This document shows, piece after piece, positions 1-49,131 of a stretch of 49,131 bases of DNA (the first letter of the stretch is position 1; each line of letters starts with the position of its first letter). Made by a program: the position numbers and the translations under genes. The notes under the pieces are model-generated. The model searched no databases. It had not been told where the DNA came from and saw nothing but the letters and a program-made list of their open reading frames with translations. This stretch comes from a virus. The DNA lies in IMG/VR virus record IMGVR_UViG_3300007351_000017, positions 1 through 49,131 of that record; one strand, 5' to 3'.

Positions 1-99
1 GGGGGGACGAACAACGAAGACTTAACACTCGACTTTGAGACCACGGCGAATACTGTCGCGGTTGCCAGCACCACGGGAGTAACGGCTATTTCCCTTGGC
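1..99. repeat. terminal direct repeat, copy 1 (identical to 49033..49131); circular-assembly overlap or short terminal redundancy
   Basis: Bases 1-99 are repeated exactly at 49033-49131. The ORF that runs off the 3' end continues in phase from base 100. Confidence 0.95.
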
Positions 100-471
100 T
101 CTCTCAACCTTGCCACGACGGGAACGATCACTGGCGCGATCAAGATCAACTCCGACGCTGACGGGATGAGCCAAGCAGAGATGACCACGGCGGGGATGTA
201 TGGCTCCTTGTTCGTGGCAACGGGGGCAGGAACATGGAACTTGCCGGCGGCGGTGGCCGGGATGTCATTTTGTATGCTGGTTCCAAGCATCGCAGCGGTT
301 GTCATCAATCCGGACGACTCAGACGTTCTGATCTACGATGGAACGGCTGATGATGCGGGACATCAGATCTCCGGTGGTGCAGCGGCCGGGGACTTCATCT
401 GCTTCATCGCTGTGGATACCACCAACTGGCACAGCATGGGACGGAGGGGAACGTGGACACCAGGGTCATAA
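1..471 (+). CDS. 3' part of the junction-spanning tail-fibre-like gene (true join 48301..49131 + 100..471, about 400 aa)
   Basis: Frame 1 is open from base 1 to the TAA at 469-471 and is in phase with the ORF starting at 48301. The stop overlaps the next ATG (TAATG). Confidence 0.8.
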   Translation, partial: GGTNNEDLTLDFETTANTVAVASTTGVTAISLGSLNLATTGTITGAIKINSDADGMSQAEMTTAGMYGSLFVATGAGTWNLPAAVAGMSFCMLVPSIAAVVINPDDSDVLIYDGTADDAGHQISGGAAAGDFICFIAVDTTNWHSMGRRGTWTPGS

Positions 472-1331
472 TGAAACGCCTTATCCTTGCTCTTCTTCTC
501 CTGCCCCTGACTGCCTGGGGGCAGGTCTGCACGGACGAAGTGCCCTGCTCGGCCCGGATGAATCAGGGCATCTTGGGGGCGGGGGTTCCGGCGGCTAGCT
601 CTGTTGCTTTCTGCACAGGGGCGACTACATGTAACACGCCTCCCCAAAATTGTGAGTTACTTTGTGAAGACTTAGGAGGGTCAACTGCTTGCGGTAACAG
701 TCGTGATTCTGTTTGTCGGAATGGATGGACCGTTACAGAGTCAACTGGTACGATAGATTTTGACAACACCCCTGGCGGGACGCACCCATGCACGGGGACA
801 ACAGTTCCATATAGTATCCTTGTTACCGTCCCAAGTGCCGGCAGTGGGGAGGACGCTCGCGCATATGTTGCCTTTGCCTCTGCGGATCGAACAAGATTGT
901 ATATTCAAGGTTATATACGTGTGACAGCCGAAGGGCTTAGTGATACTGATACTCATTCAATGGTCAGTCTCGTAGCATCAACTGATTCTAATTCTCTAGT
1001 GTTCAATCTTCGGCAAGACGCTGGCGGAGCTTTGAAATTTCGTGTCGCAAGCGGAGCTAATTCAGATATTGGAGCAACTGCAATTAGCTTGAATAATTGG
1101 TATCCCTTCCGTATTGATTGGGCAAACAATTCAACGGCTAACTGGTGGGTGGATTACAATAATGACGGTGATTTCGCTGATGCTGGAGAAGATGAAGGCA
1201 CAGTTACTACAATAGATGTTCCTGTTGATTGGATCAAAATAGGTCAACTAAATTTCACAGAAACATTGACTTACGAATTGATATTGTTATCTGTAAGCGA
1301 GACAGCCATGCCAACGGCTTGCACAAGGTGA
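471..1331 (+). CDS. secreted protein with a putative concanavalin/LamG-like jelly-roll domain (fibre or receptor-binding accessory)
   Basis: N-terminus MKRLILALLLLPLTAWGQV looks like a Sec signal peptide. The C-terminal half (SLVFNLRQDAGGALKFRV...WYPFRIDW...WWVDYNNDG) resembles LamG/ConA-like folds. Start is TAATG-coupled to the upstream gene. Confidence 0.7.
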   Translation: MKRLILALLLLPLTAWGQVCTDEVPCSARMNQGILGAGVPAASSVAFCTGATTCNTPPQNCELLCEDLGGSTACGNSRDSVCRNGWTVTESTGTIDFDNTPGGTHPCTGTTVPYSILVTVPSAGSGEDARAYVAFASADRTRLYIQGYIRVTAEGLSDTDTHSMVSLVASTDSNSLVFNLRQDAGGALKFRVASGANSDIGATAISLNNWYPFRIDWANNSTANWWVDYNNDGDFADAGEDEGTVTTIDVPVDWIKIGQLNFTETLTYELILLSVSETAMPTACTR

Positions 1332-1335
1332 TGGC

Positions 1336-2637
1336 ATGATAACACGAGCTTTCTTCGTACTGTTTTATGTCCTTTGCGGTTTGAGCCAGTCCCATGCTGC
1401 ATGTTCGGGAATAAGTCCAACGTGGGCTGCGGCAAGTCCAGCCTTTTCTGACGTGAATGATTGTGCTCAGGAGGTTGGACTACAGGCAGGTGATACTATC
1501 AATATCCCATCAGGCTCGGCCACTTGGTCAAGTCAACTTTTGTTTACGATAGAGGTTGCTTTGGTAGGATCTGGTTCTTCCAGCACAATTATTACTAATG
1601 GGATGGCAGATAATACTCCGTTAATTTACTTCAACATTTCTTCTAATACTGCATCTCCGTCGAGGGTGTCAAATATCCAATTCATTGGAACGGCATCAAA
1701 TGTTGCTGGAGTACACATCAGAATAGATGATGATTTGAATTTTATGGTTGATAACTGTTTCTTTAATGGTGGAGGTAGCGCGACAGGAGATAATGATATA
1801 GGGGTTGCAATATATTCACTAAGATCGTATGGCGTGGTGAATAATAACACTTTTATTACTGCTGCAAGAGAAGTGATACAGGTATGGGGGACGGAGGCAA
1901 CTGCCTGGGGGGAATCAAAATCTCTTGGTGATTCCAACGCCCTTTATGTAGAAGGAAATACGTTTTCTGGAACTTCCGATGAGGTAATTATGGGTTTTGG
2001 TGGTTCCAATTATGTGTTTCGATATAACACAATATCAGGAGGCTATACTCAAATTGATAGTCATGGATCATGTGATGGTGATCCCAGAGGCGGAAGAACA
2101 TTTGAAATATACCGTAACTCAATTACGATAACTGCTGCTTCGTGGGCGGGTTTGTCCCTTCGTGGTGGGACTGGTGTTGTATGGGAAAATGTACTGACCG
2201 AATCAGGCGGAACTTTTTCGCGCCAGATAGGCTTAACCGAGTATCAGTTAGGCTATGCTAGTTGTGTTTGTGACACAGAGTATCCGATTGCCGATCAGAT
2301 AGGTCGTGGTCAAGATCAATCACTCGATCCATTATACATTTGGTCTAATACAACGAATGGATCGCCATCCACAATCAGTTTGTATAGCGCTGGAACTGCT
2401 TGTGGCGAAGTATCACTTTCTGATTATATACAAGAGAATCGGGATTATTATCTGTCTGTGAAAACGGGTTACTCTCCATACATCTGCCCTCACCCCTTGA
2501 CTGGTTTGACAGGTGGATGTTCAGTAACTACAGCGGGACGGTCTGGATACAACATAAGGGTTCTGTCAGCAGGCCAGGGCACTACGAACACCGCGAGCCA
2601 GGGCACGGTAAACATCTGGCCAGGAGGGTCGAATTGA
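1336..2637 (+). CDS. secreted right-handed parallel beta-helix protein (polysaccharide lyase/depolymerase-like)
   Basis: Signal-peptide-like N-terminus MITRAFFVLFYVLCGLSQSHA. Repeated N-x-F/I rungs are present (VDNCFFNGGG, VNNNTFI, VEGNTFSG, FRYNTISGG, IYRNSITI). Confidence 0.75.
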   Translation: MITRAFFVLFYVLCGLSQSHAACSGISPTWAAASPAFSDVNDCAQEVGLQAGDTINIPSGSATWSSQLLFTIEVALVGSGSSSTIITNGMADNTPLIYFNISSNTASPSRVSNIQFIGTASNVAGVHIRIDDDLNFMVDNCFFNGGGSATGDNDIGVAIYSLRSYGVVNNNTFITAAREVIQVWGTEATAWGESKSLGDSNALYVEGNTFSGTSDEVIMGFGGSNYVFRYNTISGGYTQIDSHGSCDGDPRGGRTFEIYRNSITITAASWAGLSLRGGTGVVWENVLTESGGTFSRQIGLTEYQLGYASCVCDTEYPIADQIGRGQDQSLDPLYIWSNTTNGSPSTISLYSAGTACGEVSLSDYIQENRDYYLSVKTGYSPYICPHPLTGLTGGCSVTTAGRSGYNIRVLSAGQGTTNTASQGTVNIWPGGSN

Positions 2638-4658
2638 AGAAGCTGCTTGCAATCCTCCTGCTTCTCACCGCCCTCAACGCCGAGGCAGCGACCAACACGG
2701 CAGGGCAGGGGACGGTCAACACAGCGGGACAGGGGTCTGATATCTCGTGGAACGTGCAGCCCATGACCAAGCTCACGGCCACAGGCGGATCTGGCAGTTG
2801 GTCGAATGGGCGCTACACGGTCGCCAAGGGGGCCACGGTTTCATTCGAGACGGATGCGGCGGGGAGCAGTTGGTGCTGGGACTTCGGGACCAGGCCAGCA
2901 AGTGCTGCCCTCGGCACCTGGGACAACACGAACAAGCTGATCTGCTATTCCAAGAGCGCAACGCCCTCCCACACCTTCAGCGACTACGGCTTCTTCGAGA
3001 TCCAGGTTGCCGTTTCAACCGGGGCACTAACCCGCCGAGGCGTCCTCCTGGTAGACGTTCCCGTTGGCGGCACGGTGATCGACCCGACAGCGGACTGCGG
3101 CGCAAACAACCTGGTTGGGGATGGGACGACGGATAATGCCGGGAAGCTAGCAACCTGCGTCAACGCCATCTCTGGTTCTGTTACAGTCACTTTCCCAACT
3201 GGGACTTACAAGTTTACTGCTCAAAACACATTTTCTACAGGATCAGGACTTACCGCCGTTGCATTACAACCAACATCTGGCGCTGCTGTAGTCCTTACAT
3301 TCGATCCTTCCGAAGACGATTCAGCCGACATATTTATCCTAACCGGTGCTCCAATAGATATAAGGGATATGACATTCACCAGAACTTTTGAGGCCGGGGA
3401 ATCGACAGACAATGTTGACCAAACCAATGCTATATCTGGAAATAGTGTGGTCGCGGTTGCAATACTTAATAGTACGTTCAATAACTTTTCAAACGTAGCC
3501 GATTCATTCACTGGGGTGTTTTCTAAAAGCAATCTTAATAACTGGGGAGCTAGAGGCTTAACTGTATCTGGATGGACTGACGATGGTGATGGGACATATA
3601 GTAAAACAGGTATAGGGTTGACAGTCAGAGCATTTGAAGAAGATGATATTTATGTCACAAAAGCCACGTCATCAACTTTGTCTGATGGTTATTGGTATTA
3701 TGATGGTTCAACGACAACTCTTCACTATAAACCAACTACTGGAGTGCCTGGAGATCATACAACTGTTGCTATATATGCGGTGTCAGCCATTGCTGGGGTT
3801 GTAGGCAATAGCTTCGTAGCTAATTTATATTCGGCGCCTCATTCTCAATACAATGGGCACATGATTTATAATGCCGGAACGGGTTATAGATACGCTGTTG
3901 GTAATTACCATGACCACACAAAAGCCCTTTCTGGTTCAATTTGGGAGGGCACAGGGGCAAACTCATATTTCTACCGAAATATGATGTCTGGAGACAAGAC
4001 AAAAATTGACGACTCATTTACAAAAGTGTTTGTTAATACTAATAGTAGTGGTGCTATTGAACTGAGAGATAGCCATTTAGATGGCCTATGGAGCGGTCCA
4101 CTTGTTGGATCTGCTACGGCATCTCATATTATATCGTCAAATCTCTTTGTTAACACTCCTGTAGCATCTCCCACTGTTTACATCAATGCCGCGTCTGGAT
4201 CTAGCGCAGTTACGAACAATAACATATTCGGTGTTGGTAGTCCCGCTGGAGGGGTCTGGAAAATATACGCTTTTGACGGGGCGGGTTGTTCTGGGTGTTC
4301 GGCCTCCGACGAACCCAACCTCACCGGTTGCGCTTGCCTCTCCGCCTCCGGCAACGTTGACGACGAGACGGCATCGGACGTGGCCTCCCCTGGCGCCTGG
4401 GAGTTTACCGTCCCCACCCTGGCCGTGGATTCTATCGTCACCAAGACTGTGACTGTAACGGCCTCTGATGCTGGCTCCGGCCTTGGCTCGACCGCCCGAT
4501 GGCCCTTTGTCTTAGCGGCACAGATCCAAGCCGAATACGCCGACAACTGGTATTCCGAGATCCAGGACTATGCTGTGGAAACAACTTGGACTAACACCCC
4601 CATCAAAGCTCGGGTGTCAGACGTGGACCACAACTGGACGGTCCCAACAGCGCCATGA
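2634..4658 (+). CDS. secreted PKD-like + pectate-lyase-3-type beta-helix protein (tailspike/depolymerase-like)
   Basis: TTG start at 2634 lies 6 nt after AGGAGG (2622-2627). Signal-peptide-like LKKLLAILLLLTALNAEA, a PKD-like segment (WCWDFGT...HTFSDYGFFEIQVAV), then NLVGDGTTDNAGKLATCVNAI, as seen at the start of Pectate_lyase_3 tailspikes. The upstream part of the long track ORF (from 2517) overlaps the previous gene. Confidence 0.75.
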   Translation: MKKLLAILLLLTALNAEAATNTAGQGTVNTAGQGSDISWNVQPMTKLTATGGSGSWSNGRYTVAKGATVSFETDAAGSSWCWDFGTRPASAALGTWDNTNKLICYSKSATPSHTFSDYGFFEIQVAVSTGALTRRGVLLVDVPVGGTVIDPTADCGANNLVGDGTTDNAGKLATCVNAISGSVTVTFPTGTYKFTAQNTFSTGSGLTAVALQPTSGAAVVLTFDPSEDDSADIFILTGAPIDIRDMTFTRTFEAGESTDNVDQTNAISGNSVVAVAILNSTFNNFSNVADSFTGVFSKSNLNNWGARGLTVSGWTDDGDGTYSKTGIGLTVRAFEEDDIYVTKATSSTLSDGYWYYDGSTTTLHYKPTTGVPGDHTTVAIYAVSAIAGVVGNSFVANLYSAPHSQYNGHMIYNAGTGYRYAVGNYHDHTKALSGSIWEGTGANSYFYRNMMSGDKTKIDDSFTKVFVNTNSSGAIELRDSHLDGLWSGPLVGSATASHIISSNLFVNTPVASPTVYINAASGSSAVTNNNIFGVGSPAGGVWKIYAFDGAGCSGCSASDEPNLTGCACLSASGNVDDETASDVASPGAWEFTVPTLAVDSIVTKTVTVTASDAGSGLGSTARWPFVLAAQIQAEYADNWYSEIQDYAVETTWTNTPIKARVSDVDHNWTVPTAP

Positions 4659-4676: not shown

Positions 4677-5117
4677 TTGCCACTCACCGAAATCGCTCCG
4701 AATGTCATTGTTGTCGCGAGTCTTGTCGGGATCGCCTCTGGCGCTGCTGGTGCATGGGCGGGGGTCAAGGGTACGCTGCGGGTAGTTGAGAGCAGACTGC
4801 AACGGGCAGAGGACGATGGAAAGGAGCGCAATGGCAAGATAGCCAAACTACAGGAACACAACTTCAACGTTATGGTCAAACATGACTGTGAGGCAATTCG
4901 GACACGATGTCAGTCCGAACTGAAGGAGGATATACGCCGGGTGGAGTATATAGTGAATGAACTTCGGAAAGACATGAAAGAGGAGATAAAAGCCGCTTCT
5001 CTCGACAGGAGGGAAACATGGCAGGCCCTCATGGAGATGGCGTCACCGGATACCAGGGCGAGAATCATCCGAGAGAGGCGGAATCGAGAGACATACGACT
5101 CGCTCGACGAGTCCTGA
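4677..5117 (+). CDS. N-terminal transmembrane, coiled-coil protein (i-spanin-like or other lysis/membrane accessory)
   Basis: TTG start after GAGAGGAG. Hydrophobic IAPNVIVVASLVGIASGAAGAWAGV is followed by a charged helical region. It sits at the head of the lysis cassette. Confidence 0.55.
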   Translation: MPLTEIAPNVIVVASLVGIASGAAGAWAGVKGTLRVVESRLQRAEDDGKERNGKIAKLQEHNFNVMVKHDCEAIRTRCQSELKEDIRRVEYIVNELRKDMKEEIKAASLDRRETWQALMEMASPDTRARIIRERRNRETYDSLDES

Positions 5118-5202
5118 GCCATGCGTTTTTGATCAACCAGTTGACGCTGCGGCTTATCGACCTGGAGCGCAAGGTCAAGGCGATGGAGGGGAGGAAGGAT
5201 GG

Positions 5203-5430
5203 ATGATGACGACGAGCGCGACTGCCCCTACATCAATGAGTGCGCGCAAGAAAGTGGAATTCTATCTGCGCAGTGCCCTCTATTCGCTGGAGATTGGGGA
5301 ATATGTGTTAATGGAAAGCTTTATCGGACAGGCACTGCGGCGATTGCCGGAGTTGAGAGAGGAAGGGCCGCCGCTGAAGAAGGCGAAGCGGAAATCGATC
5401 CTCCCCTGGCTCAGGAGGCGTGAAAGATGA
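5203..5430 (+). CDS. hypothetical small basic protein
   Basis: ATG follows GGGGAGGAAGG. The stop overlaps the endolysin start (ATGATG at 5427). The alternative frame 5199..5423 looks less protein-like. Confidence 0.5.
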   Translation: MMTTSATAPTSMSARKKVEFYLRSALYSLEIGEYVLMESFIGQALRRLPELREEGPPLKKAKRKSILPWLRRRER

Positions 5431-5789
5431 TGCCGACCCGCGTCCGGTTCCTCTATGAGATCGCGCGCCTTCTAGACTACGCCCGGGACCAGGAGATCCA
5501 GTTGGTTTGCTTCTACTTTCATCGAAGCGACGAGGAGCAGGCTCGGTTGGTGGCCGAGGGCAAAAGTCGGGTTCAGAGGTCCAAGCATCAGGACTGGCTC
5601 GCCATGGACTTCGCGTTGTTCGACGATCTTGACGAGGATGGCCGGATCGACCAGGACGAGATCCGATGGAAAGACGACCCCAGGTATACTCGGCTTGGGG
5701 AGTTCTGGGAGGCCCTGGGAGGACGATGGGGGGGCCGGTGGAAGGACCCCTATGATCCCTATCACTTCGAGGCAGGGAGGGAATGGTGA
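5427..5789 (+). CDS. peptidase M15-type endolysin (L-alanyl-D-glutamate / D-Ala-D-Ala peptidase fold)
   Basis: Zinc-ligand pattern SKHQDWLAMD (H-x6-D) plus C-terminal DPYHFE, as in M15 (VanY / phage Ply-type) peptidases. About 120 aa, next to a holin-like gene. Confidence 0.75.
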   Translation: MMPTRVRFLYEIARLLDYARDQEIQLVCFYFHRSDEEQARLVAEGKSRVQRSKHQDWLAMDFALFDDLDEDGRIDQDEIRWKDDPRYTRLGEFWEALGGRWGGRWKDPYDPYHFEAGREW

Positions 5790-5986
5790 TGGCAGATGAT
5801 CCCATTTACCCAACAGTGACCCAGAAGCTGAACAGCCGGACCCTTTGGGTTACGGTGGTCCTACTCGTGGCGGGGCTCGCCGTAGGGTATTTCTTCAACG
5901 GCGCGTGGATGCCGGAAGCGGGAAAGGCCATGTTCGACCTGGGGTTGTTTGCGGCTGGCATCATGGTTGGGAAGGCAGGGAAGTGA
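5789..5986 (+). CDS. holin-like small membrane protein (two predicted TM segments)
   Basis: ATG at 5789 lies 8 nt after GGAGG and overlaps the endolysin stop. Hydrophobic stretches are LWVTVVLLVAGLAVGYFF and LGLFAAGIMVG. Confidence 0.6.
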   Translation: MADDPIYPTVTQKLNSRTLWVTVVLLVAGLAVGYFFNGAWMPEAGKAMFDLGLFAAGIMVGKAGK

Positions 5987-6672
5987 TGGCAAAGGCCGAC
6001 TTCCATTGCGCATTGACCTATACCCTGGCTCTGGCCGCGGGGTATCCCGAGGATGAAGCCCTCAAAATGGGATGGTCCGCAGGGATCGTTGACACGCACG
6101 ATATCACCCGCTCGGCGTCCATCAACGCCATGGACACGCTTGCCCAGCTCTACCAGTTGCAGCCGTTCCATTTCATCCCAGGGGAAACGTCCATCGTCGA
6201 GCCGAACAGTGCGAATGCTCAGTACATCGTCAACCTTGCGCGAATTGGAAACCCCTACCGGTTCGGGATCGCCCTCCATATGCTCCAAGATACCTTCTTC
6301 CACCAGGGGTGGAGTGGCCTCTGGGAGAACGTCAACGAGGTGCCTCCAGAGGACATTATCCAATGGGGTACACCAGCTATTGGACATGCAAAGTTGGGCA
6401 ATGTTCCTGACAACATTACCACCGACTGGAGGTGGACCGACCCCCGCAAAGGGTACGGAGAAGTGATAGACAACAGGCTCCGTGCCATGGACGCAGCGAA
6501 GGCAACGTGGCATTTCCTTCGTCGGGGTGCGCCCTTCCCCGACATCGAGCACCTCATCAGGGGAGAGTATCCGTTCTCGCTCTTCGCGGTTTCCGTGGAC
6601 GCCGATATGGAGCGGGGATTCCGCACGGCGGCGAGGAAACACCTGGCAGCCTTTCTGGAGGTCACGGCATGA
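5986..6672 (+). CDS. hypothetical protein with a zinc-dependent phospholipase C / S1-P1-nuclease-like histidine pattern
   Basis: ATGA overlap with the holin stop. Motifs are FHC near the N-terminus, FHF, LHMLQDTFFH (H-x3-D-x3-H) and IGHAKLG. The resemblance to the PLC family was judged by eye only. Confidence 0.6.
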   Translation: MAKADFHCALTYTLALAAGYPEDEALKMGWSAGIVDTHDITRSASINAMDTLAQLYQLQPFHFIPGETSIVEPNSANAQYIVNLARIGNPYRFGIALHMLQDTFFHQGWSGLWENVNEVPPEDIIQWGTPAIGHAKLGNVPDNITTDWRWTDPRKGYGEVIDNRLRAMDAAKATWHFLRRGAPFPDIEHLIRGEYPFSLFAVSVDADMERGFRTAARKHLAAFLEVTA

Positions 6673-7406
6673 ACAAGCTCGGCAAGCTCCCGGCGAAGGA
6701 CGATAGGCGGACTCTGCGGCTTAGATCCTACATCGAGCCAACTCTGGACGTTCCCGAGACCTTCTGCACCGACTGGAGGTTCATGCAGTTCGTCCCCAAC
6801 CGGATGTTTCGGAATGACATCCTCGGGTGCTGCGTGATCTCGGCTCGGGCAAACCAGTCGTTAAGATTCGAGTTGCGGGAGACGGACACCCTCCCGGAGA
6901 TCGATGACGCCGAGGTTGAGCGGGAATACTTCAAAGAGAGCGGGGGGCAGGACACGGGGCTTTACATGCTTGACTCCCTCAAGGCATGGAGGTCTCAGGG
7001 TTGGGAGTTCTCCTGGCGGACCTATGTCATACATGCGTTTGGTGCTGTGGACTTCCACGACGAGCAACTTGTCAAAGCCGCTATCTATCTCTGCCATGGC
7101 ATCCAGGTCGGGTTCAGCGTTCCTCAATCCTGCATCGACCAGTTCAACTCGGACCAGATCTGGACGCCGAAGTTCTGGGATGGGGGAATCGTTGGGGGCC
7201 ATGCGATCTACGTCATGGACTATGACCGCGACGGTGTGACCTGTATGACCTGGGGCAGACGGCAGAGGATGTCCTGGCCTTTCTGGCACCGCTACGTCGA
7301 CGAAGCTTATGCCGTTGTGGACAGCCGAAACCCATGGCTCGGGGAACCATCCCCACTGGACATCGAACAACTAGAGGCCGACCTACAGGCCGTCACAGGA
7401 GGGTAA
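6669..7406 (+). CDS. papain-like (C1-type) cysteine peptidase-like protein
   Basis: ATGA-coupled start. NDILGCCVISA (nucleophile Cys context) and GGHAIYVMDYD (His context) fit a Cys-His papain fold. Confidence 0.65.
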   Translation: MNKLGKLPAKDDRRTLRLRSYIEPTLDVPETFCTDWRFMQFVPNRMFRNDILGCCVISARANQSLRFELRETDTLPEIDDAEVEREYFKESGGQDTGLYMLDSLKAWRSQGWEFSWRTYVIHAFGAVDFHDEQLVKAAIYLCHGIQVGFSVPQSCIDQFNSDQIWTPKFWDGGIVGGHAIYVMDYDRDGVTCMTWGRRQRMSWPFWHRYVDEAYAVVDSRNPWLGEPSPLDIEQLEADLQAVTGG

Positions 7407-7805: not shown

Positions 7806-8429
7806 ATGAGTACGCCTGCTGAGATCAAGGCCGAGCTCAATTTGATGATGGGCTCGAGATCAGATTACATCGCCGCAAGGCAGTACCAACATATCTCCTG
7901 GGCGGAGCAAGAGCTCGCGTATGCGATAAGGTTTCCGGAGCTCGAGGCATATGCAACGATTCCCCTTGTAGCAAGCCAAACGAGTTACTTGTACCCAAGC
8001 GATTTGTTTGCGATTTACTCGTTGATCTATCCCACACTTGGAAGGAAGCTTGTGAATATCAACATTGAAGTTTTGGATAAGATCATTACGTTGCCAAGCG
8101 GCGCTCCTGCACGCTATGCGCGGTATGGGAAGATGCTCTACATAGACACGTCGCCGACCTCAGACGAAGCAGGAAACACGTTGAAGTTGCGGTACTTGTC
8201 CCAAATTGCGGAGGTTGATGCAAGTTCGTCGGCGTTCACCCTGCCGCACCCATTTCATGAAGCAATTCTGCTTGGCTCACTTTACCGCGCCCATCGAGCG
8301 TTTCGTGAGTATGAGCAAGCTAACGAAGTTAAACGAGATTATCTTGCGTTTGTTAGGTCTAGGGTGATCCAGTTCGAAGAAGAGGACCGCCTTGAAGATG
8401 GCTTTCCGTTGGAGGTCAGATTAACATGA
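7806..8429 (+). CDS. hypothetical structural protein (head-tail adaptor position)
   Basis: GGAGG RBS. First gene of a translationally coupled run preceding the tail genes. Function is inferred from position only. Confidence 0.6.
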   Translation: MSTPAEIKAELNLMMGSRSDYIAARQYQHISWAEQELAYAIRFPELEAYATIPLVASQTSYLYPSDLFAIYSLIYPTLGRKLVNINIEVLDKIITLPSGAPARYARYGKMLYIDTSPTSDEAGNTLKLRYLSQIAEVDASSSAFTLPHPFHEAILLGSLYRAHRAFREYEQANEVKRDYLAFVRSRVIQFEEEDRLEDGFPLEVRLT

Positions 8430-8800
8430 GCCCGATTGGAGGAACGTGGTCCAAGACGGATGCAGGGGGAAAGGAGAGTCAACTTACGATGATTGCTCCT
8501 GGGACGGTTACGGCGTTTGCTAATGGAGACACAACGCCGAGTGTTGTCAATGGCAACGTGTTTAAGACGGCAAACACAGCTACAACGGTGATTACGGACT
8601 TTGATGGGTATGTAGAGGGGCAGGAGATCACTGTGTTAATCAATGATGATTACACAGAGATTGATTTTTCCTCGGCGGCGCTGCAGGGCAACGTGAAGCA
8701 AAAATGGCGCCCGACAACAGGTGACGTGTTGAAGGCTACGGTTGTGTCTGATGTTTGGTATTGTCAGCTCTATAAGAGCCAGGAAGTAATATACCCATAG
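8426..8800 (+). CDS. hypothetical structural protein
   Basis: ATGA overlap with the upstream gene; clean ORF. Confidence 0.6.
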   Translation: MSPIGGTWSKTDAGGKESQLTMIAPGTVTAFANGDTTPSVVNGNVFKTANTATTVITDFDGYVEGQEITVLINDDYTEIDFSSAALQGNVKQKWRPTTGDVLKATVVSDVWYCQLYKSQEVIYP

Positions 8801-8809
8801 GAGGCTAAC

Positions 8810-9061
8810 ATGAAGTGCCGGTACAATAGCTTTAAACAATGCATAGGCAAGGAATGCAACGCATATATGGATATTGCGATGCGAGACCCACAGGGAAATG
8901 TTGTTGATACAAGGGGAGACTGCGCTGATAGGGTGCAGACACAAGTTTTGATAGAGCAGACGCAAGCGATCGCCGCAGGAGTTAGGTTCTTGATGCAACG
9001 GTTTGGAGGAGCTAATAGAGTGGAGGTTCCTCCAGCGATCCTTCGAGGAGGTAGGGGATAA
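8810..9061 (+). CDS. hypothetical Cys-rich small protein
   Basis: GGAGG lies 5 nt upstream of the ATG. The stop overlaps the next start. Confidence 0.55.
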   Translation: MKCRYNSFKQCIGKECNAYMDIAMRDPQGNVVDTRGDCADRVQTQVLIEQTQAIAAGVRFLMQRFGGANRVEVPPAILRGGRG

Positions 9062-10170
9062 TGCCATTCGCAGAGTCCTGGGACGAGGCATCGCCGACAG
9101 ATGGGGATAATGCGTATGATATTGATGATTTTCTGCGGTCACTGAAGACGGCGATTCGAGAGCGACTCGCGGTAGATCACTATACCTACGCCGACGAGTC
9201 GGGTCATACGGATGTAGGTAGGCATCGAGCAGGTACACACGCAACGCTCTATGTTGGCACAACAACGGAGATCAACGCCCTTACGGGAATGGATACGGAT
9301 TCCTGGGCGTTTGATACAGACTTGTCTGTGCTGAAACGATATACCGGCGCTGCGTGGGAAGCTAAGGGCCACGCGGCTAGTCATGCCACGGGCGCTAGTG
9401 ACGCACTTGACGCCTTGACAGTGACAAATGGAGCGGCGCTCGGACAAGCAGTTACTGCAAGAGCGCGGTTTGGGTTTAGCTCGACCACGGCGATCACCGT
9501 AAGTGCCTGTGCGTATCATGTTGCAGGCGCAACAAACTACGTTGCGTATGTGAATACGTCGCTCACGTTTACGCTTGGTTCAGGTGGATCGAACGCCGGC
9601 TCAACGAATCTTGGGAACAACGAGTGGCATTACATCTATATTGATGATTCGGCGATGCAGAGCGCCGGGACGGCGGTACTTGCTGCAGCACGATTAATCA
9701 ACTCAACAACGGCGCCAACTTGGAGTGATGCAAAGAATGGGTGGTACAACGGAGCTGATCGGTGTATCTTCGCTGTACGAACGGATGGTTCGGCGCAGAT
9801 TCGAGAATTCTTCCACGTGGGGGATCAGGTTCAGTTCGCCGATGAGATTGAGGACGCCGCCTCAACCACAGATATTGATAATGCTTGGACTGATGTTACG
9901 TTGACAGTGCCTCTGTTTAATGCACCAGCAATTGTAACCTTCATTGGTGTGTATGGCTCAGCGAACAAAGAGTTCTATTGGCGTACAAATGGCCAAACTG
10001 GTACTGTGGGGAAGAAGATCTTTCGCGCATCAGCAAACACGCAGGTTCCAATGACAACCTGCGACGTGATTCCAGACGCTACGGGGAAGATCGAAGTCAT
10101 AGCGGATGCGTCGAATAATACAACGATTGGCGCCTACACAGTAGGATGGAAATTCCCCAACCGAATGTGA
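9061..10170 (+). CDS. tail fibre / receptor-binding-like protein
   Basis: The N-terminus (DGDNAYDIDDFLRSLKTAIRERLAVDHY) resembles the conserved N-terminal module of many podovirus fibre proteins. The C-terminal part is Thr/Ala/Gly-rich. Confidence 0.6.
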   Translation: MPFAESWDEASPTDGDNAYDIDDFLRSLKTAIRERLAVDHYTYADESGHTDVGRHRAGTHATLYVGTTTEINALTGMDTDSWAFDTDLSVLKRYTGAAWEAKGHAASHATGASDALDALTVTNGAALGQAVTARARFGFSSTTAITVSACAYHVAGATNYVAYVNTSLTFTLGSGGSNAGSTNLGNNEWHYIYIDDSAMQSAGTAVLAAARLINSTTAPTWSDAKNGWYNGADRCIFAVRTDGSAQIREFFHVGDQVQFADEIEDAASTTDIDNAWTDVTLTVPLFNAPAIVTFIGVYGSANKEFYWRTNGQTGTVGKKIFRASANTQVPMTTCDVIPDATGKIEVIADASNNTTIGAYTVGWKFPNRM

Positions 10171-10178
10171 GGTGAAGA

Positions 10179-10382
10179 ATGGCAACAGTCTTGCGGTGTG
10201 ATGTGTGCGGTAAGGCGCCTAACGGAACCGCAAATCAGTTCACGCGGAAAAAGGTGGTACAGCTTGACGGAAAGCCCGTAATGTTGACGGTTTACGTTAC
10301 AGTAGAGAAAATCGCAGGAGACACGGATGCACATCTGTGTCCGCAGGACGCTCGGCGTGCTGTTGACTTAGTGATGGGGTAG
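10179..10382 (+). CDS. hypothetical small protein
   Basis: GAGGTGA RBS; 67-aa ORF between two tail genes. Confidence 0.5.
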   Translation: MATVLRCDVCGKAPNGTANQFTRKKVVQLDGKPVMLTVYVTVEKIAGDTDAHLCPQDARRAVDLVMG

Positions 10383-10386
10383 CCAA

Positions 10387-12003: not shown

Positions 12004-12200
12004 AATATCTACGGTCAAACACGCCAGATCTGCCTGTTGTGCCAACGCCGGAGCAGCTCTCTAGTCCAGAGGAACTTTATCAATACCTCCGTGACTTGTC
12101 TGAGCGGCTTACGGATTTACTTGATGACTTCATTATGATCGAGCGTGAGCGCTCGTCAATTCGAGACATTCGGGATAAACCACCTGTAGTAGGAGGATAA
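12000..12200 (+). CDS. hypothetical small protein
   Basis: ATGA overlap with the upstream gene. Confidence 0.5.
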   Translation: MKYLRSNTPDLPVVPTPEQLSSPEELYQYLRDLSERLTDLLDDFIMIERERSSIRDIRDKPPVVGG

Positions 12201-12201
12201 G

Positions 12202-12912
12202 ATGGAGCTACCAAAAGGCATAGCGCTGATGGAGATGTCACAAGCGAATGTGACGAAAGTCTGGACGGAGTTCAATCGGTTTCCCAAGCTGTTTATGGAC
12301 CACCAAAGGGGTGATCAGCAGCATTTCATGCAACAACTTTTAGCAAAGAACTCGTTGTATTTTGTGCTGGATGATGCAGGGATTATCTATTTCACGGACA
12401 TTTTGCCAAAGTACATTGCAAAGTTTCACCTGATGTTTTGGGATAAACAGCTCCGCGGACGGGAACCTATTTGTAAGGATATGATTGGCTGGGCGTTTAA
12501 TACGCTCAAGGTTGAGAAGGTATGGACCTCAATTCCGGCGTTTGCGCGGGTCCAACGGAAGTTCGCCGAGAGGCTAGGCTTTCTTAGAGAAGGGTGCTTT
12601 AGGAAGGGATATCCCTGTATGGGAACAAACTATGATGTTTACTGGTATGGGATGCTGAAGGAGGACTTTGATGGGCAACTTTCTCGGGAGCAGCAGCTCG
12701 GCGTCGGGGACATCGCTAGGCCAGATAGATTACGGGAAGTACGGGAAACTGGTGGACCTGCTGAGCCGATGGCTCATGGGGACGAAGAAGCAACCGGGGC
12801 TACTGCCGAAGGAGCTAGAGTACTATCCCGGCCTGTTGCCAGGGATGCAGGAGCTCCCGGGGGTGATGGGAACGGCGAAGGACTGGATGCAGGAGCTGTA
12901 CCCGGAGATTAA
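12202..12912 (+). CDS. GNAT-type N-acetyltransferase-like protein (RimJ/RimL-like C-terminal motif) with an atypical 3' extension
   Basis: AGGAGG RBS. ARVQRKFAERLGFLREGCFRKG...YDVYWYGMLKEDF matches the GNAT C-terminal signature. After about residue 156 the sequence becomes low-complexity and overlaps the next gene by 242 nt. Confidence 0.6.
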   Translation: MELPKGIALMEMSQANVTKVWTEFNRFPKLFMDHQRGDQQHFMQQLLAKNSLYFVLDDAGIIYFTDILPKYIAKFHLMFWDKQLRGREPICKDMIGWAFNTLKVEKVWTSIPAFARVQRKFAERLGFLREGCFRKGYPCMGTNYDVYWYGMLKEDFDGQLSREQQLGVGDIARPDRLREVRETGGPAEPMAHGDEEATGATAEGARVLSRPVARDAGAPGGDGNGEGLDAGAVPGD

Positions 12913-45538: not shown

Positions 45539-45799
45539 ATGGCCGCAATTGATAAGACTGATGTTGGGGTGACGACCTTCGCCACCGTTGCGGGGAAGTT
45601 GGTTGGTGCAGGATTCTTCACCGTTGAGGGGTCTGGGCAGGCTTTCACGGGGATATATTGTGAAAGTGAGACCAGCGCCGGTGTCGTAACCACGTCGTAT
45701 CTCTGGCCGAGCACAACTGGTGTTTGGCAAAAGGGAACGACCCAGCCTACTATTGCAACGCAGGATTCAGCGGGCGCGGCGATTGGCGCCGCTGATTAG
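45539..45799 (+). CDS. Thr/Ser/Gly-rich small protein
   Basis: GGAGGAGGTGA RBS; 86 aa. It lies between the capsid gene and the glycosyltransferase cluster. Confidence 0.55.
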   Translation: MAAIDKTDVGVTTFATVAGKLVGAGFFTVEGSGQAFTGIYCESETSAGVVTTSYLWPSTTGVWQKGTTQPTIATQDSAGAAIGAAD

Positions 45800-47156: not shown

Positions 47157-48022
47157 TTATCGGCGTTCCATCTGGAATAGGGGACATTTCTTGGGCGTAT
47201 AGCAAGCTGTGCCATGTTGGGCAGTTGGATTACGAAATTGCTACAGGGTGGCCATTTCGAGCGGATGAGTATATGAAGATGCTTCCTGGGGTTAGGGTAG
47301 TTATGTATGGGGATTTTTCATTTGATGAAATAGTGGCGTTTGAGCAGGTTCAGTTGAAGATAGGAAATGGAATGGTGACTTGGCAAGCTGTAAAGGATTC
47401 GGGGTATGGGCGAGTGCTGCTGCAACCAAATCACCATTTAGAGCGCGGGATTCCTCTTCAGCGCTGGATGCCAGATTTGGAAACAGATTATCATTACCCA
47501 ATGAACATTCCTCAGACGGCAGTGGCTACGGCGGAGTCCCTTCTGTTCGGCGTTCCACGTCGTGAGACTTTAGTCGGAATATCTTGTGCCTCTTACCGTG
47601 GCGCGAAGGCGTGGAAAACTTGGGAACTTTTGGAGTGGACAGATTTTTGCAAAACGTTGTTAGCCGAAGGCTTTGGCCTTATTTTTCTCGGCGGTCGTTG
47701 GGATGATCTTACAGACGCTGTGGCGCTTGAGTTCACTGAGTGGCCTAACCTCGTTGGAAAAACGTCATTCGCTACTGCTTGTGCGTTGCATCAAATGGTT
47801 CCTTGGTACGTTGGCTTTTCATCTGGCCTGGGTATCATCAGAACTGTGTTACGGCAGAATTGCATGATGCTTTGGCCGGAGCATCAGCAACCCTTGTCTA
47901 CATCTTGGGCCGATCCGGAGGATTTAGAAACGCGAAGGTATGTAGTAAGCCCTTATGTGGCACTAAATACCGTAACGAAGATATTTCTTCGTCATGCGAA
48001 GGAGACACAAAATGGCGAATGA
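47153..48022 (+). CDS. GT9-like glycosyltransferase (heptosyltransferase fold)
   Basis: AKAWKTWELLEWTDFCKTLLAEGFGLIFLGGRWDD...NLVGKTSF...YVGFSSGLGI follows the GT9 C-terminal domain pattern. Confidence 0.6.
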   Translation: MIIGVPSGIGDISWAYSKLCHVGQLDYEIATGWPFRADEYMKMLPGVRVVMYGDFSFDEIVAFEQVQLKIGNGMVTWQAVKDSGYGRVLLQPNHHLERGIPLQRWMPDLETDYHYPMNIPQTAVATAESLLFGVPRRETLVGISCASYRGAKAWKTWELLEWTDFCKTLLAEGFGLIFLGGRWDDLTDAVALEFTEWPNLVGKTSFATACALHQMVPWYVGFSSGLGIIRTVLRQNCMMLWPEHQQPLSTSWADPEDLETRRYVVSPYVALNTVTKIFLRHAKETQNGE

Positions 48023-48290
48023 TGTGCAGGGGAATCCGTGGGTGATTGATACGGCTAGTGCGACGGCGCTTACAAGCAACCTCGTTAAGATTAGCCGTAT
48101 GGTATGGCGAGAGCCCACAACCGTTGGACATGCTCTTAGCGTAACGGACGCTAACAGCAAAGAGGTTTGGGACGAGTATGCGATTGCTGCAGGAAACGGC
48201 ATTAACTACGAACGTGAAGTAGAGAATTGGGTCAATGGGCTCATTGTTCCGACGCTCGATAGCGGGACACTTCTTATCTACATTCGGTAA
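48012..48290 (+). CDS. hypothetical 92-aa protein
   Basis: GGAG lies 7 nt upstream of the ATG at 48012. It overlaps the GT9-like gene by 11 nt. Confidence 0.55.
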   Translation: MANDVQGNPWVIDTASATALTSNLVKISRMVWREPTTVGHALSVTDANSKEVWDEYAIAAGNGINYEREVENWVNGLIVPTLDSGTLLIYIR

Positions 48291-48300
48291 GGAGCAGGCA

Positions 48301-49131
48301 ATGAAGAAACTTTGGGTTACTTTGCTGATCTTGCTCTTTGCAGCGTCAGCGTCGGCGATTGAGCCTGGGCTTATACAGGTATGTGAAGAAGACGGAGCGC
48401 CGTGTGGATGGTTTGCAAAGCTAAAAGTTACAAATGGAACGCTTACGGATAATGCTGATAGCACAGTGTCTGTGACTACACAGGCAGCAGACGCCGACCT
48501 AACGTCCATCGCCGGAGGGGTGACCGGCATTGTCAAGGGCCTTGGCAACGGCAGTGGCTTTACGGCTGCGGCTGCCGGGACGGATTACGTCGGTGGTGCT
48601 GCCTCCTCCACGGACAACGAGCTTGTGCGGTATGACTCGACCTCGGGGAAGGTGATACAGACGTCGTCGGTCATCCTTGACGACACATACAAGCTCTACC
48701 GCAACAGCACGACGGATGCGCACACCCTTTGTCTGCAAGGCTATCACGGGGACAGCACGGCGTTTGTTGACGCCCTCTGTATCGAGAACGAAACGGCGGC
48801 ATTAGGTAAAGTGAAGGTGACAGTAGGCGCCAACGCCACCTTTGAGACTGGCACCATACTCGTTGCTTCCGACTCCATCCACGCCCAGACGGGGACGACA
48901 GCAGACGATGATATGTATCTCGCTGCTTACGACGTGGACGGGGCCGCATATCGAAACCTCATTACCCTGAAGGCCAGCAACACCCCTCAACTCCTGCTCA
49001 AGTCAACAGCCGTGATGAACCTCGGCGGTGTGGGGGGGACGAACAACGAAGACTTAACACTCGACTTTGAGACCACGGCGAATACTGTCGCGGTTGCCAG
49101 CACCACGGGAGTAACGGCTATTTCCCTTGGC
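48301..49131 (+). CDS. 5' part of the junction-spanning secreted tail-fibre-like protein
   Basis: AAGGAG RBS. Signal-peptide-like MKKLWVTLLILLFAASASA and fibre-type motif TDNELVRYDSTSGKVIQTSSVILDD. No stop codon before the window end; it continues at base 100. Confidence 0.8.
   Translation, partial: MKKLWVTLLILLFAASASAIEPGLIQVCEEDGAPCGWFAKLKVTNGTLTDNADSTVSVTTQAADADLTSIAGGVTGIVKGLGNGSGFTAAAAGTDYVGGAASSTDNELVRYDSTSGKVIQTSSVILDDTYKLYRNSTTDAHTLCLQGYHGDSTAFVDALCIENETAALGKVKVTVGANATFETGTILVASDSIHAQTGTTADDDMYLAAYDVDGAAYRNLITLKASNTPQLLLKSTAVMNLGGVGGTNNEDLTLDFETTANTVAVASTTGVTAISLG
49033..49131. repeat. terminal direct repeat, copy 2
   Basis: Identical to bases 1-99. Confidence 0.95.

What the first reader, a model, noticed from the sequence alone, without database searches (positions are those of the whole stretch)
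1..4658. Four consecutive fibre/depolymerase-like proteins that all start with Sec-type signal peptides
Four genes in a row begin with a short basic N-terminus, a Leu/Ala-rich hydrophobic core and an A-x-A-like site:
- the junction-spanning gene (48301..49131 + 100..471, MKKLWVTLLILLFAASASA);
- 471..1331 (MKRLILALLLLPLTAWG);
- 1336..2637 (MITRAFFVLFYVLCGLSQSHA);
- 2634..4658 (LKKLLAILLLLTALNAEA).

Two of them are clear right-handed beta-helix enzymes. One of those has PKD-like and Pectate_lyase_3-type features. A third protein is LamG/ConA-like.

Virion tail fibres and tailspikes are assembled in the cytoplasm and normally lack signal peptides. These proteins may therefore be exported, soluble or envelope-anchored glycan-degrading or glycan-binding proteins made during infection. 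Alternatively the hydrophobic N-termini may serve another role, such as membrane-associated assembly.
Basis: partly seen in the sequence, partly recalled or inferred. Interest (0 to 1): 0.62.

Follow-up and report, generated by a model that had tools for sequence, protein, structure and literature searches.

The report
Phage fibre and enzyme genes with export signals
A complete 49-kb uncultured phage carries four neighbouring late genes (a knob-tipped fibre and sugar-binding or sugar-cutting proteins) that all start with textbook secretion signals, so they are probably sent out of the cytoplasm where the virus particle is built, a route not described for such proteins of tailed phages.

Summary
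The window is a closed 49,032-bp tailed-phage genome. Exactly four of 57 predicted proteins have a strong Sec/signal-peptidase-I-type N-terminus, and the four are adjacent and tightly packed or overlapping.

- **P1** is a mosaic fibre. Its C-terminal knob fold matches phage spikes and fibres.
- **P2** is Cys-rich with a weakly supported ConA-like/polysaccharide-lyase-like domain.
- **P3** is a right-handed beta-helix from a large family of secreted bacterial proteins.
- **P4** has a PKD domain. Its beta-helix is not verified.

Several points argue for real export:
- Signal sequences diverge while mature N-termini are conserved.
- Two homologue pairs, one member with and one without the signal, align from the predicted cleavage site.
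- Cysteines are paired and enriched 4.4-fold.

The phage also has an ordinary signal-less tail fibre beside its adaptor and nozzle. Close relatives fill the same slot with signal-less proteins. The four genes are therefore an exchangeable accessory cassette.

My best reading (0.45) is exported, disulfide-bonded glycan-targeting proteins acting outside the cytoplasm. The main rival (0.28) is docking to virions after holin action.

This scan has found the same phenomenon on other DNA several times. I found no paper describing it for tailed-phage fibres. No trained predictor or experiment was available.

The parts
48301..49131 (+). P1, first part (residues 1-277) of the 400-aa junction-spanning fibre gene. 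Signal peptide is 48301-48357 (MKKLWVTLLILLFAASASA|IEPG). The conserved N-module with a C-x6-C loop is 48358-48525.
   Evidence: The N-module (residues 17-73) is 56% identical to a 597-aa signal-bearing protein in L008, while the two signal sequences are unrelated.
100..471 (+). P1, second part (bases 1-99 repeat 49033-49131). The C-terminal knob domain is about 76-468 (residues 270-400), with a nearly invariant Cys pair (C335, C378).
   Evidence: 1,381 relatives at E <= 1e-3, with the domain always at the extreme C-terminus. AF2 domain pLDDT is 85-95. Best PDB matches are the Pa223 capsid spike, CBA120 TSP4 and T4 gp9/gp10. There are 236 BFVD hits. The Cys pair is present in 115 of 126 domains.
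471..1331 (+). P2, 286 aa. Signal peptide is 471-521 (MKRLILALLLLPLTAWG|QVC). It has a Cys-rich N-terminal third (8 Cys in residues 20-82) and a possible ConA-like / polysaccharide-lyase-like domain (residues 128-251).
   Evidence: Pfam gave only a sub-threshold GEVED hit, and the word-index search found no homologue. Residues 128-251 are 26% identical to a PF14099 protein of L004, with pairwise E 6e-6.
1336..2637 (+). P3, 433 aa. Signal peptide is 1336-1398 (MITRAFFVLFYVLCGLSQSHA|ACSG). It is a right-handed beta-helix with a disordered C-terminal tail (residues 414-433).
   Evidence: 152 homologues were found, mostly in bacterial MAGs, many with signals and T9SS/dockerin/MYXO-CTERM tags. The AF2 model has pLDDT 89.3. 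Foldseek places it among CE8/GH87/PL6 enzymes and phage tailspikes, all with TM <= 0.43. Cys pairs co-vary.
2634..4658 (+). P4, 674 aa, TTG start behind AGGAGG. Signal peptide is 2634-2687 (LKKLLAILLLLTALNAEA|ATNT). The PKD domain is about 2814-3017. The rest is of unverified fold.
   Evidence: No homologue was found other than itself and no PDB sequence match. Only a weak local hhalign match to the P3 family cap motif was seen.
2567..2735 (+). Four copies of an 8-residue unit TA[GS]QGT[TV]N. Two end P3 and two begin mature P4, bracketing the P4 signal-peptide coding segment.
   Evidence: The P3 tail is disordered in the model.
48012..48290 (+). A 92-aa signal-less protein gene immediately upstream of P1. 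The ORF is callable from 47994, but the conserved start is MANDxxGNPW at 48012. It is a conserved partner gene of signal-bearing runs in other phages.
   Evidence: It is 36% identical to L008 7606-7884, which directly precedes the protein sharing P1's N-module. It is 43% identical to a gene in L029 that is followed by three signal-bearing proteins. It is 38-39% identical to a gene in L031 that is followed by a signal-less 999-aa protein.
9061..10170 (+). Comparator, not part of the cassette. This is the phage's canonical signal-less tail fibre (369 aa), lying between the SU10-type adaptor (7806-8429) and the nozzle-like protein (10387-12003).
   Evidence: Its N-terminal 57 aa are 63% identical to the 262-aa fibre of relative L002, and the rest is unrelated. 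The adaptor matches PF24175. The nozzle-like protein matches phrog_3287.

Best explanation
The four genes form an exchangeable, late-expressed cassette of genuinely Sec-exported proteins.

**Proposed function.** The set consists of a knob-tipped trimeric fibre (P1), a ConA-like / lyase-like protein (P2), a beta-helix carbohydrate-active enzyme of a secreted bacterial family (P3), and a PKD-bearing protein (P4).
- It targets envelope or extracellular polysaccharide.
- It does so separately from the cytoplasmically built tail, which has its own signal-less fibre.
- It is released with the burst as a stable extracellular binding and degrading set. That set would clear matrix or capsule, or destroy or mask receptors on the infected cell and its debris.

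**Shown.** The signals, their restriction to these four genes, the cassette nature, the P3 and P1 folds, and the cysteine pattern.

**Inferred.** Actual export and cleavage, the glycan substrates, and that the proteins stay off the virion.
For: **Signals.**
- Only these four of 57 proteins carry canonical tripartite signals, with 11-14-residue cores and AxA-type sites. They are adjacent (p = 1.4e-4) and tightly packed or overlapping.
- Signal sequences differ while the mature N-termini are conserved. Examples are P1 against L008 and P3 against P0003/P0011/P0009, all with '...A|AC(S/A)G.SP.W'.
- Homologues exist with and without the signal, and the alignment begins at the predicted cleavage site: L008 against L025 and L019 against L017. 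The signal therefore behaves as a detachable pre-sequence.

**Family context.**
- The P3 family is mostly bacterial. 73 of 109 M-starting members score as signal-bearing. Some carry T9SS, dockerin or MYXO-CTERM tags.
- P2's only detectable relative is a signal-bearing PF14099 protein on the same contig as a P3 relative.

**Cysteines.**
- Mature P1-P4 have 1.92% Cys against 0.44% in 14 signal-less virion proteins (Fisher p = 1.4e-7), arranged in close pairs.
- Cys pairs co-vary in the P3 family (phi 0.88 for C384-C395).

**A separate tail.**
- The tail has its own signal-less fibre with a lineage-conserved anchor.
- Relatives with 72-76% identical capsid protein fill the same slot with signal-less proteins.
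Against: - No trained predictor and no experiment was available. Export and cleavage are inferred.
- P1 has a phage spike/fibre knob fold and RBP-like mosaicism. Its relatives reach 2,600 aa. Long fibres make little sense as free soluble proteins.
- A signal-less 92-aa partner gene travels with signal-bearing runs. That fits a virion adaptor better than a free secreted set.
- The slot holds signal-less fibre or beta-helix proteins in relatives, which suggests a virion-type role for the slot.
- The P1 knob was not found in 185,579 prokaryote species genomes by pattern scan, so it is phage-specific rather than host-derived cargo.
- No lipoprotein o-spanin was found, so a diderm host is not proven.
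- L002's signal-less 636-aa protein also has 11 Cys.
Confidence: 0.45

Rival explanations
1. **Exported virion parts.** The proteins are exported and oxidatively folded in the periplasm. They dock onto finished particles only when holin lesions merge cytoplasm and periplasm, before or as the outer membrane fails. They would act as capsid or tail accessory fibres and spikes. The mature N-module of P1 would bind a virion-borne adaptor, possibly the 92-aa protein.
For: - P1's knob matches the Pa223 capsid spike, CBA120 TSP4 and T4 gp9/gp10, plus 236 viral models.
- The architecture is mosaic: the N-module is shared with L008, and the knob with over 1,000 clusters.
- The [92-aa gene + N-module fibre] pair is co-inherited in a phage whose 18-kb fragment shows no similarity to this capsid protein.
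- The cassette sits in a variable slot of the structural operon that holds signal-less fibre or beta-helix proteins in relatives. It lies directly after the capsid genes, as the Pa223 capsid-spike analogy would suggest.
- Signal gain and loss within one protein family fits a function carried out after the compartments merge.
Against: - I found no description of such assembly for any tailed phage in six literature searches.
- This phage already has a complete signal-less adaptor, fibre and nozzle set.
- P3, and weakly P2, belong with monomeric secreted bacterial enzymes rather than trimeric tailspikes.
- The protein after the 92-aa homologue in L029 does not share P1's N-module.
- Later checks of the same bold claim on other DNA in this scan priced it at 9-30 in 100.
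Confidence: 0.28
2. **Display on the infected cell.** The exported proteins are retained on or in the host envelope. There they remodel, coat or strip surface glycans during infection. The effect would be superinfection exclusion, protection of progeny from re-adsorption, or adhesion of the infected cell.
For: - Bacterial phage-fibre-like MAT proteins have a signal peptide followed by a conserved anchor domain and are displayed on the Bdellovibrio surface.
- Huge phages encode sortase substrates and outer-membrane proteins with signals. [quoted passage not shown]
- Many P1 relatives have a proline-rich stretch right after the signal.
- Neighbouring glycosyltransferase and methyltransferase genes fit a glycan-remodelling theme (note e1-3257474).
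Against: - P1-P4 have no outer-membrane barrel, lipobox, sortase motif or T9SS C-terminal domain.
- Sec alone does not reach the surface of a diderm cell.
- Expression from the late structural operon next to the lysis genes leaves little time for exclusion to matter.
Confidence: 0.12
3. **Not export signals.** The hydrophobic N-termini are uncleaved membrane tethers or assembly or oligomerisation helices, and the proteins stay on the cytoplasmic side.
For: No experimental evidence of cleavage exists. Hydrophobic N-termini can tether proteins.
Against: - Cores of 11-14 residues are too short to span a membrane.
- Small residues at -3/-1 occur in all four.
- Homologues lacking the segment start exactly at the predicted cleavage site.
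- The P3 family is an extracytoplasmic family with secretion tags.
- Paired, enriched cysteines point to an oxidising compartment.
Confidence: 0.08
4. **Artefact.** The pattern comes from wrong start codons or from chance hydrophobic N-termini.
For: P4 uses a TTG start. A longer in-frame ORF from 2517 exists.
Against: - Genes abut or overlap the previous stop, with Shine-Dalgarno-like sequences before P1, P3 and P4.
- None of the other 53 proteins scores comparably.
- Signals are conserved in position across homologues.
Confidence: 0.02

Closest known systems
Podovirus tail fibres, tailspikes and capsid spikes (Pa223 gp52 capsid spike, CBA120 TSP4, T4 gp9/gp10 domains, P22/Sf6-type depolymerase tailspikes)
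   Same: - P1's C-terminal knob fold matches these.
- The architecture is mosaic, with a conserved N-module and exchangeable distal parts.
- P3 has the right-handed beta-helix fold.
- The genes sit in a variable slot of the late structural operon.
   Different: - Known examples have no signal peptide and assemble in the cytoplasm.
- P1-P4 have cleavable-looking Sec signals and paired cysteines.
- P3 resembles monomeric bacterial enzymes more than trimeric spikes.
- The phage has a separate canonical fibre.
Bdellovibrio bacteriovorus MAT (mosaic adhesive trimer) fibres (PMC10769870)
   Same: These have a signal peptide followed by a conserved N-terminal domain, a phage-like trimeric fibre and a variable C-terminal binding domain. 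They are exported and act outside the cytoplasm on surface glycans.
   Different: They are encoded in a bacterial chromosome and displayed on the predator. I made no sequence comparison with P1. P1's conserved part is the C-terminal knob, not a 130-aa N-domain.
Phage-encoded exported proteins (secreted and SAR endolysins, T4 RI antiholin with its cleavable signal, Porphyromonas phage proteins with signal peptides, huge-phage sortase substrates and outer-membrane proteins)
   Same: These are phage genes whose products use the host Sec pathway.
   Different: They are lysis regulators or enzymes, small envelope proteins, or proteins of unknown function. None is described as a run of fibre or depolymerase-type proteins in the structural operon.
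Secreted bacterial beta-helix carbohydrate-active enzymes (CE8 pectin methylesterase, GH87, PL6 alginate lyases, RbmB)
   Same: P3 shares the fold. Like many members of its own family, it has a signal peptide.
   Different: - TM-scores are at most 0.43 and identity is 10-16%.
- P3 itself has no Pfam hit.
- The catalytic residues and substrate are unknown.
- P3 appears to belong to an uncharacterised family.
Filamentous-phage coat and receptor-binding proteins (pVIII, pIII). This comparison rests on my own knowledge.
   Same: These are virion proteins made with signal peptides. pIII is folded with periplasmic disulfides before joining the particle.
   Different: Inoviruses assemble at the membrane by extrusion. 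This phage is a tailed, HK97-capsid, terminase-packaging phage with a lysis cassette.

Membership tests
Sec / signal peptidase I signal peptide | Positively charged n-region | tested here: met
   The n-regions are MKK, MKR, MITR and (M)KK.
Sec / signal peptidase I signal peptide | Uncharged hydrophobic core of about 7-15 residues, shorter than a membrane span | tested here: met
   Cores are 14, 12, 12 and 11 residues.
Sec / signal peptidase I signal peptide | Small neutral residues at -3 and -1 of a cleavage site 3-7 residues after the core | tested here: met
   Sites are ASA|I, AWG|Q, SHA|A and AEA|A. Homologues lacking the segment begin at the equivalent site.
Sec / signal peptidase I signal peptide | Not a lipoprotein (lipobox) or Tat (twin-arginine) signal | tested here: met
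   A lipobox scan of all frames found none in these genes. No RR motif is present in the n-regions, by reading the N-termini.
Sec / signal peptidase I signal peptide | Call by a trained predictor, and experimental export and cleavage | not testable with these tools
   SignalP and DeepTMHMM were not available. The phage is uncultured.
Right-handed parallel beta-helix (pectate-lyase-like) carbohydrate-active enzymes: P3 | The beta-helix fold | tested here: met
   The AF2 model has pLDDT 89.3 and pTM 0.88. Foldseek gives probability 1.0 to CE8, GH87, PL6 and tailspikes.
Right-handed parallel beta-helix (pectate-lyase-like) carbohydrate-active enzymes: P3 | Match to a curated family model (PF13229, PF12708 or a CAZy family) and identified catalytic residues | tested here: not met
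   P3 has no Pfam or NCBIfam hit. Only some homologues carry PF13229 or PF12708. The invariant residues E206, R229, H243, N261 and R276 have no assigned role.
Pectate_lyase_3 / beta-helix: P4 | HMM or profile match | tested here: not met
   Pfam at E <= 1 returned only PKD. hhalign against the P3 family gave 5.9% probability, limited to the cap motif.
PKD domain: P4 | PF00801 above the gathering score | tested here: met
   24.4 bits against a cut-off of 23.5, residues 61-128.
LamG / concanavalin-like: P2 | HMM match to a ConA-clan family | tested here: inconclusive
   There is no Laminin_G hit. GEVED scored 20.7 bits, below its 24.4 cut-off. P2 shows 26% identity over 131 aa to a PF14099 protein, pairwise E 6e-6.
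Virion tail fibre / tailspike of this phage lineage | N-terminal anchor domain shared with the fibres of close relatives | tested here: not met
   P1-P4 have no match in relatives L002 or L025. The signal-less gene 9061-10170 does have one (63% identity over 57 aa).
Virion tail fibre / tailspike of this phage lineage | Presence in purified particles | not testable with these tools
   The phage is uncultured. No cultured phage carries a P1 homologue.
T9SS cargo | C-terminal sorting domain (PF18962 / TIGR04183) | tested here: not met
   P1-P4 have no such hit. The P1 C-terminal domain folds like phage knobs instead.
Bdellovibrio MAT fibre family | Conserved ~130-aa beta-rich domain after the signal peptide, and a trimeric beta-prism | not tested
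   Only the paper was read. No sequence or structure comparison was made.

The most novel reading that the evidence does not exclude
In this phage and in a large, phylogenetically scattered set of uncultured tailed phages, accessory fibres and spikes are made as Sec-exported, disulfide-bonded proteins. They join the DNA-filled particle only after the holin opens the inner membrane. On this reading, part of a tailed virion matures outside the cytoplasm. The conserved signal-less 92-aa protein would be the docking adaptor.
Probability: 0.27. Interest if true: 0.9.

Novelty: new variant of a known kind. Interest (0 to 1): 0.64.

Why it matters
Tailed-phage host-recognition and depolymerase proteins are taken to fold and assemble in the cytoplasm. 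This window and its relatives challenge that in two ways.
- A complete phage genome carries a four-gene cassette of such proteins with secretion signals.
- A fibre family of more than a thousand clusters has the signal in about two thirds of M-starting members.

If the proteins are free exported enzymes and lectins, phages carry a dedicated secretome for attacking capsule, matrix or receptors. That would be a source of oxidatively stabilised depolymerases.

If they end up on the particle, tailed-phage assembly has an extracytoplasmic step that has not been described.

Either outcome can be tested with simple export fusions and recombinant proteins. The finding also affects how metagenomic phage genes are annotated: a signal peptide should not be taken to exclude a fibre-type protein, and a fibre fold should not be taken to imply a cytoplasmic virion part.

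Tried and rejected
- **P4 and P2 homologues.** A pattern scan of IMG/VR and the word-index search found nothing for P4 but itself, and nothing for P2. PDB sequence searches of P3 and P4 were empty or noise. PHROGs gave nothing for any of the four.
- **P2 as the split-off LamG domain of a P0011-like fusion.** No similarity was found.
- **L002's 188-aa post-capsid protein carrying a P1-like knob.** Only a 5% probability local match was found, so I dropped the idea.
- **Correlating the knob Cys pair with signal presence.** This was uninformative. The pair is near-universal, and many 'no-signal' sequences look 5'-truncated.
- **P1 knob in prokaryote genomes.** None was found. A second genome scan with the P3 family failed because no stretch was conserved enough to seed it. 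Host phylum was therefore not inferred.
- **92-aa protein against L025's 107-aa protein at the same position.** They are unrelated. It has no PDB relative.
- **Prepilin, lipoprotein and Tat signals.** I considered and rejected these from the sequence.
- **The Bacteroidetes 'Q rule'.** Only P2 would expose Q, so this is not a Bacteroidota signature.

Full report
**What the window is.** The first and last 99 bases are identical, and the record is an IMG/VR virus with terminal repeats. The unit genome is 49,032 bp and closed.
- It encodes a large terminase, a portal and an HK97-type major capsid protein.
- It has an M15-type endolysin within a lysis cassette, an SU10-type head-tail adaptor and a nozzle-like virion protein.
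- The capsid protein is at most 40% identical to that of any phage in the phage collection searched (cultured and uncultured records). The matches include short-tailed phages of Pelagibacter and Roseobacter, and phages of Caulobacter.
- The gene order around the finding is:
  - capsid gene (44611-45519);
  - an 86-aa gene;
  - a 92-98-aa gene;
  - the four flagged genes;
  - the lysis cassette (4677-7406);
  - the adaptor, tail fibre, nozzle and internal proteins (7806-17615).

All four ORFs are present as described, and the junction gene reads through the circular join.
- Starts are well supported. Shine-Dalgarno-like sequences precede P1 (AAGGAG), P3 (AAGGTGA) and P4 (AGGAGG before its TTG). 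P2 overlaps the P1 stop, P3 starts 5 nt after the P2 stop, and P4 overlaps the P3 stop.
- A tripartite signal-peptide heuristic that I wrote scored these four at 3.2-3.9. None of the other 53 predicted proteins exceeded 1.64.
- Hydrophobic cores are 11-14 residues. Sites are ASA|I, AWG|Q, SHA|A and AEA|A. There is no lipobox and no twin arginine.
- Four of 57 proteins being contiguous on a circle has a chance probability of 1.4e-4.
- No trained predictor was available, so the call also leans on the comparative evidence below.

**What the four proteins are.**

*P1 (400 aa)* is a mosaic fibre.
- A full HMMER scan of 1.84 billion representatives gave 1,381 relatives at E <= 1e-3.
- Nearly all share only the last ~130-155 residues. 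That domain always sits at the extreme C-terminus, in proteins of 101 to 2,581 aa.
- A second short motif (residues ~76-143) is repeated up to 16 times in giant relatives.
- The domain modelled well (pLDDT 85-95).
- Its best solved match is the trimeric capsid spike of Pseudomonas phage Pa223, followed by CBA120 TSP4 and T4 gp9/gp10.
- 236 predicted viral structures match at E <= 1e-3, mostly from uncultured tailed phages.
- Pa223 gp52 is a capsid-anchored triple beta-helix with a C-terminal knob.

*P3 (433 aa)* has 152 relatives in the word-index search, most from bacterial MAGs.
- Some carry T9SS, dockerin or MYXO-CTERM tags or beta-helix Pfam hits.
- Its model (pLDDT 89.3) is a right-handed beta-helix. 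It resembles CE8, GH87 and PL6 enzymes and phage tailspikes only distantly (TM <= 0.43).
- It has no Pfam hit of its own. It therefore appears to belong to an uncharacterised secreted beta-helix family.

*P4 (674 aa)* has a PKD domain just above threshold. It has no detectable homologue. Its beta-helix remains unverified.

*P2 (286 aa)* has a Cys-rich N-terminal third.
- Its only detectable relative is a signal-bearing PF14099 (Polysacc_lyase) protein: 26% identity over 131 aa, pairwise E 6e-6.
- That protein lies on the same contig (L004) as a P3 relative fused to a LamG domain.

**Evidence that the signals are real pre-sequences.**
1. The signal sequence diverges while the mature N-terminus is conserved.
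   - P1 and a 597-aa protein of L008 share '(E/D)PGLIQVCEEDG(A/S)PCGWF' directly after unrelated signals.
   - P3 and its relatives P0003, P0011 and P0009 share 'A|AC.G.SP.W' after unrelated cores.
2. The same protein family occurs with and without the signal, and the alignment starts at the predicted cleavage site.
   - L008's third signal-bearing protein aligns from residue 22 to residue 2 of a signal-less 263-aa protein of L025 (54% identity).
   - L019 6004-6477 aligns likewise to the signal-less L017 6846-7226.
3. Cysteines are enriched and paired.
   - Mature P1-P4 hold 33 Cys in 1,718 residues. Fourteen signal-less virion proteins hold 20 in 4,563 (Fisher p = 1.4e-7).
   - They lie in close pairs such as 28/35, 20/26, 48/54, 384/395 and 552/555.
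   - In the P3 family, Cys pairs appear and disappear together (phi 0.88 for C384-C395).
   - The P1 knob has a Cys pair in 115 of 126 domains.

**How general it is.**
- Of 135 M-starting representatives of the P1 family, 90 score as signal-bearing.
- In 13 IMG/VR loci found with the knob alignment, the knob protein is signal-bearing in most. It sits in runs of up to five same-strand signal-bearing genes. Examples are five in L013, and four-gene runs in L019 and L015.
- Eleven of the 14 contigs I tested show no similarity to this phage's capsid protein, though many are fragments.
- The knob was not found by pattern scan in one genome each of 185,579 prokaryote species.
- A P3 relative with a signal is the last of three signal-bearing genes in a 51-kb phage-like contig. 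Two small genes, one a lipoprotein, separate it from the amidase endolysin.
- This scan has reported the same phenomenon on other DNA at least seven times. Later checks upheld the observation and priced the boldest reading at 9-30 in 100.

**What is specific to this window.**
- The tail is complete without these proteins. Gene 9061-10170 is a signal-less fibre. Its first 57 residues are 63% identical to the fibre of relative L002 and the rest is unrelated. It lies between the adaptor and the nozzle.
- Relatives with 72-76% identical capsid protein fill the slot between the capsid genes and the lysis genes differently.
  - L002 and L001 have 188-, 159-, 104-, 636- (possibly beta-helix-like by eye, untested) and 107-aa proteins.
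  - L025 has the same glycosyltransferase cassette followed by 107-, 402-, 163- and 263-aa proteins.
  - None of these carries a signal.
- The four genes are therefore one alternative cassette of a hypervariable accessory slot, not the lineage's tail fibre set.
- A signal-less 92-aa gene directly upstream of P1 recurs in other phages.
  - In L008 it directly precedes the protein sharing P1's N-module, after a glycosyltransferase-like gene and a gene with a radical-SAM-like Cys motif.
  - In L029 it precedes three signal-bearing proteins.
  - In L031 it precedes a signal-less 999-aa protein.

**Interpretation.** The data strongly favour genuine export and oxidative folding. What happens next is not resolved.
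- *For a free or envelope-acting set.*
  - P3, and weakly P2, belong with secreted bacterial enzymes.
  - The tail has its own fibre.
  - The cassette sits beside the lysis genes.
- *For virion docking after holin action.*
  - P1 has a spike/fibre fold and mosaicism.
  - Some relatives are of giant size.
  - The cassette's position is just after the capsid genes.
  - The 92-aa partner gene travels with it.
  - The signal is evolutionarily labile.
- *Odds.*
  - Exported accessory glycan-targeting set: 0.45.
  - Post-holin docking: 0.28.
  - Display on the infected cell: 0.12.
  - Non-export roles: 0.08.
  - Artefact: 0.02.

**Literature.** In six searches I found no description of signal-bearing fibre or depolymerase runs in tailed phages. 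The nearest papers are:
- Matrishin et al. 2023, on signal peptides on Porphyromonas phage genes of unknown function;
- a 2026 preprint on huge-phage sortase substrates and outer-membrane proteins;
- the Bdellovibrio MAT fibres, which show that phage-like trimeric fibres can be Sec-exported.

**Limits.**
- There was no SignalP, no experiment and no host assignment.
- P2, P4 and the 92-aa protein were not modelled.

Noticed in passing
window 2567-2735: Four copies of an 8-residue unit TA[GS]QGT[TV]N straddle the P3/P4 boundary, two at the disordered end of P3 and two at the start of mature P4. The P4 signal-peptide coding segment sits between them. This looks like a linker repeat into which a gene boundary plus signal was introduced, or a recombination joint.
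   Followed up: partly
window 48012-48290; L008 7606-7884; L029 252-551; L031 5944-6285: A small signal-less protein (MANDxxGNPW...VPTLDSG.L.I.I) is conserved immediately upstream of runs of signal-bearing proteins in unrelated phages. Once it precedes a signal-less 999-aa protein. It has no family, PDB or PHROG match. It is a candidate adaptor or chaperone.
   Followed up: partly
window 9061-10170: This is a canonical tail fibre without a signal. Its N-terminal 57 residues are 63% identical to the fibre of a relative, and the remainder is unrelated. That is the classic conserved-anchor, swapped-tip pattern.
   Followed up: yes
L008 5998-7583: Between capsid genes and the 92-aa gene, another phage carries a glycosyltransferase-like gene and a gene with a radical-SAM-like Cys motif (CxxxCxxC). 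These sit where this window has GT2/MT/GT9-like genes. Neither L008 annotation was tested against a family library. Glycan- or peptide-modifying enzymes thus seem to travel with these exported-protein runs.
   Followed up: no
L004 5744-19043: A 49-kb contig with a VirB4-like gene holds a run of very Cys-rich signal-bearing proteins (27, 16 and 32 Cys) after Cys-free large proteins. The run includes the nearest non-phage relatives of both P3 (fused to LamG) and P2 (PF14099). It is unclear whether this contig is a phage, a plasmid or a hybrid.
   Followed up: partly
L014 504-8396: A 2,615-aa protein with a textbook signal peptide ends in the P1-type knob. This is among the largest members of the family seen here.
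   Followed up: no
L017 6846-7226 vs L019 6004-6477; L025 15381-16172 vs L008 9927-10160: These are homologous proteins that differ by the presence or absence of the signal peptide, with the alignment starting at the predicted cleavage site. Signal gain and loss is evolutionarily labile in these modules.
   Followed up: yes
window 45539-45799; L002 7277-7843: The 86-aa protein after the capsid gene is conserved in relatives (71% identity in L025, 37% in L002). In L002 it carries a ~100-residue C-terminal extension. Similarity of that extension to the P1 knob is not statistically supported.
   Followed up: partly
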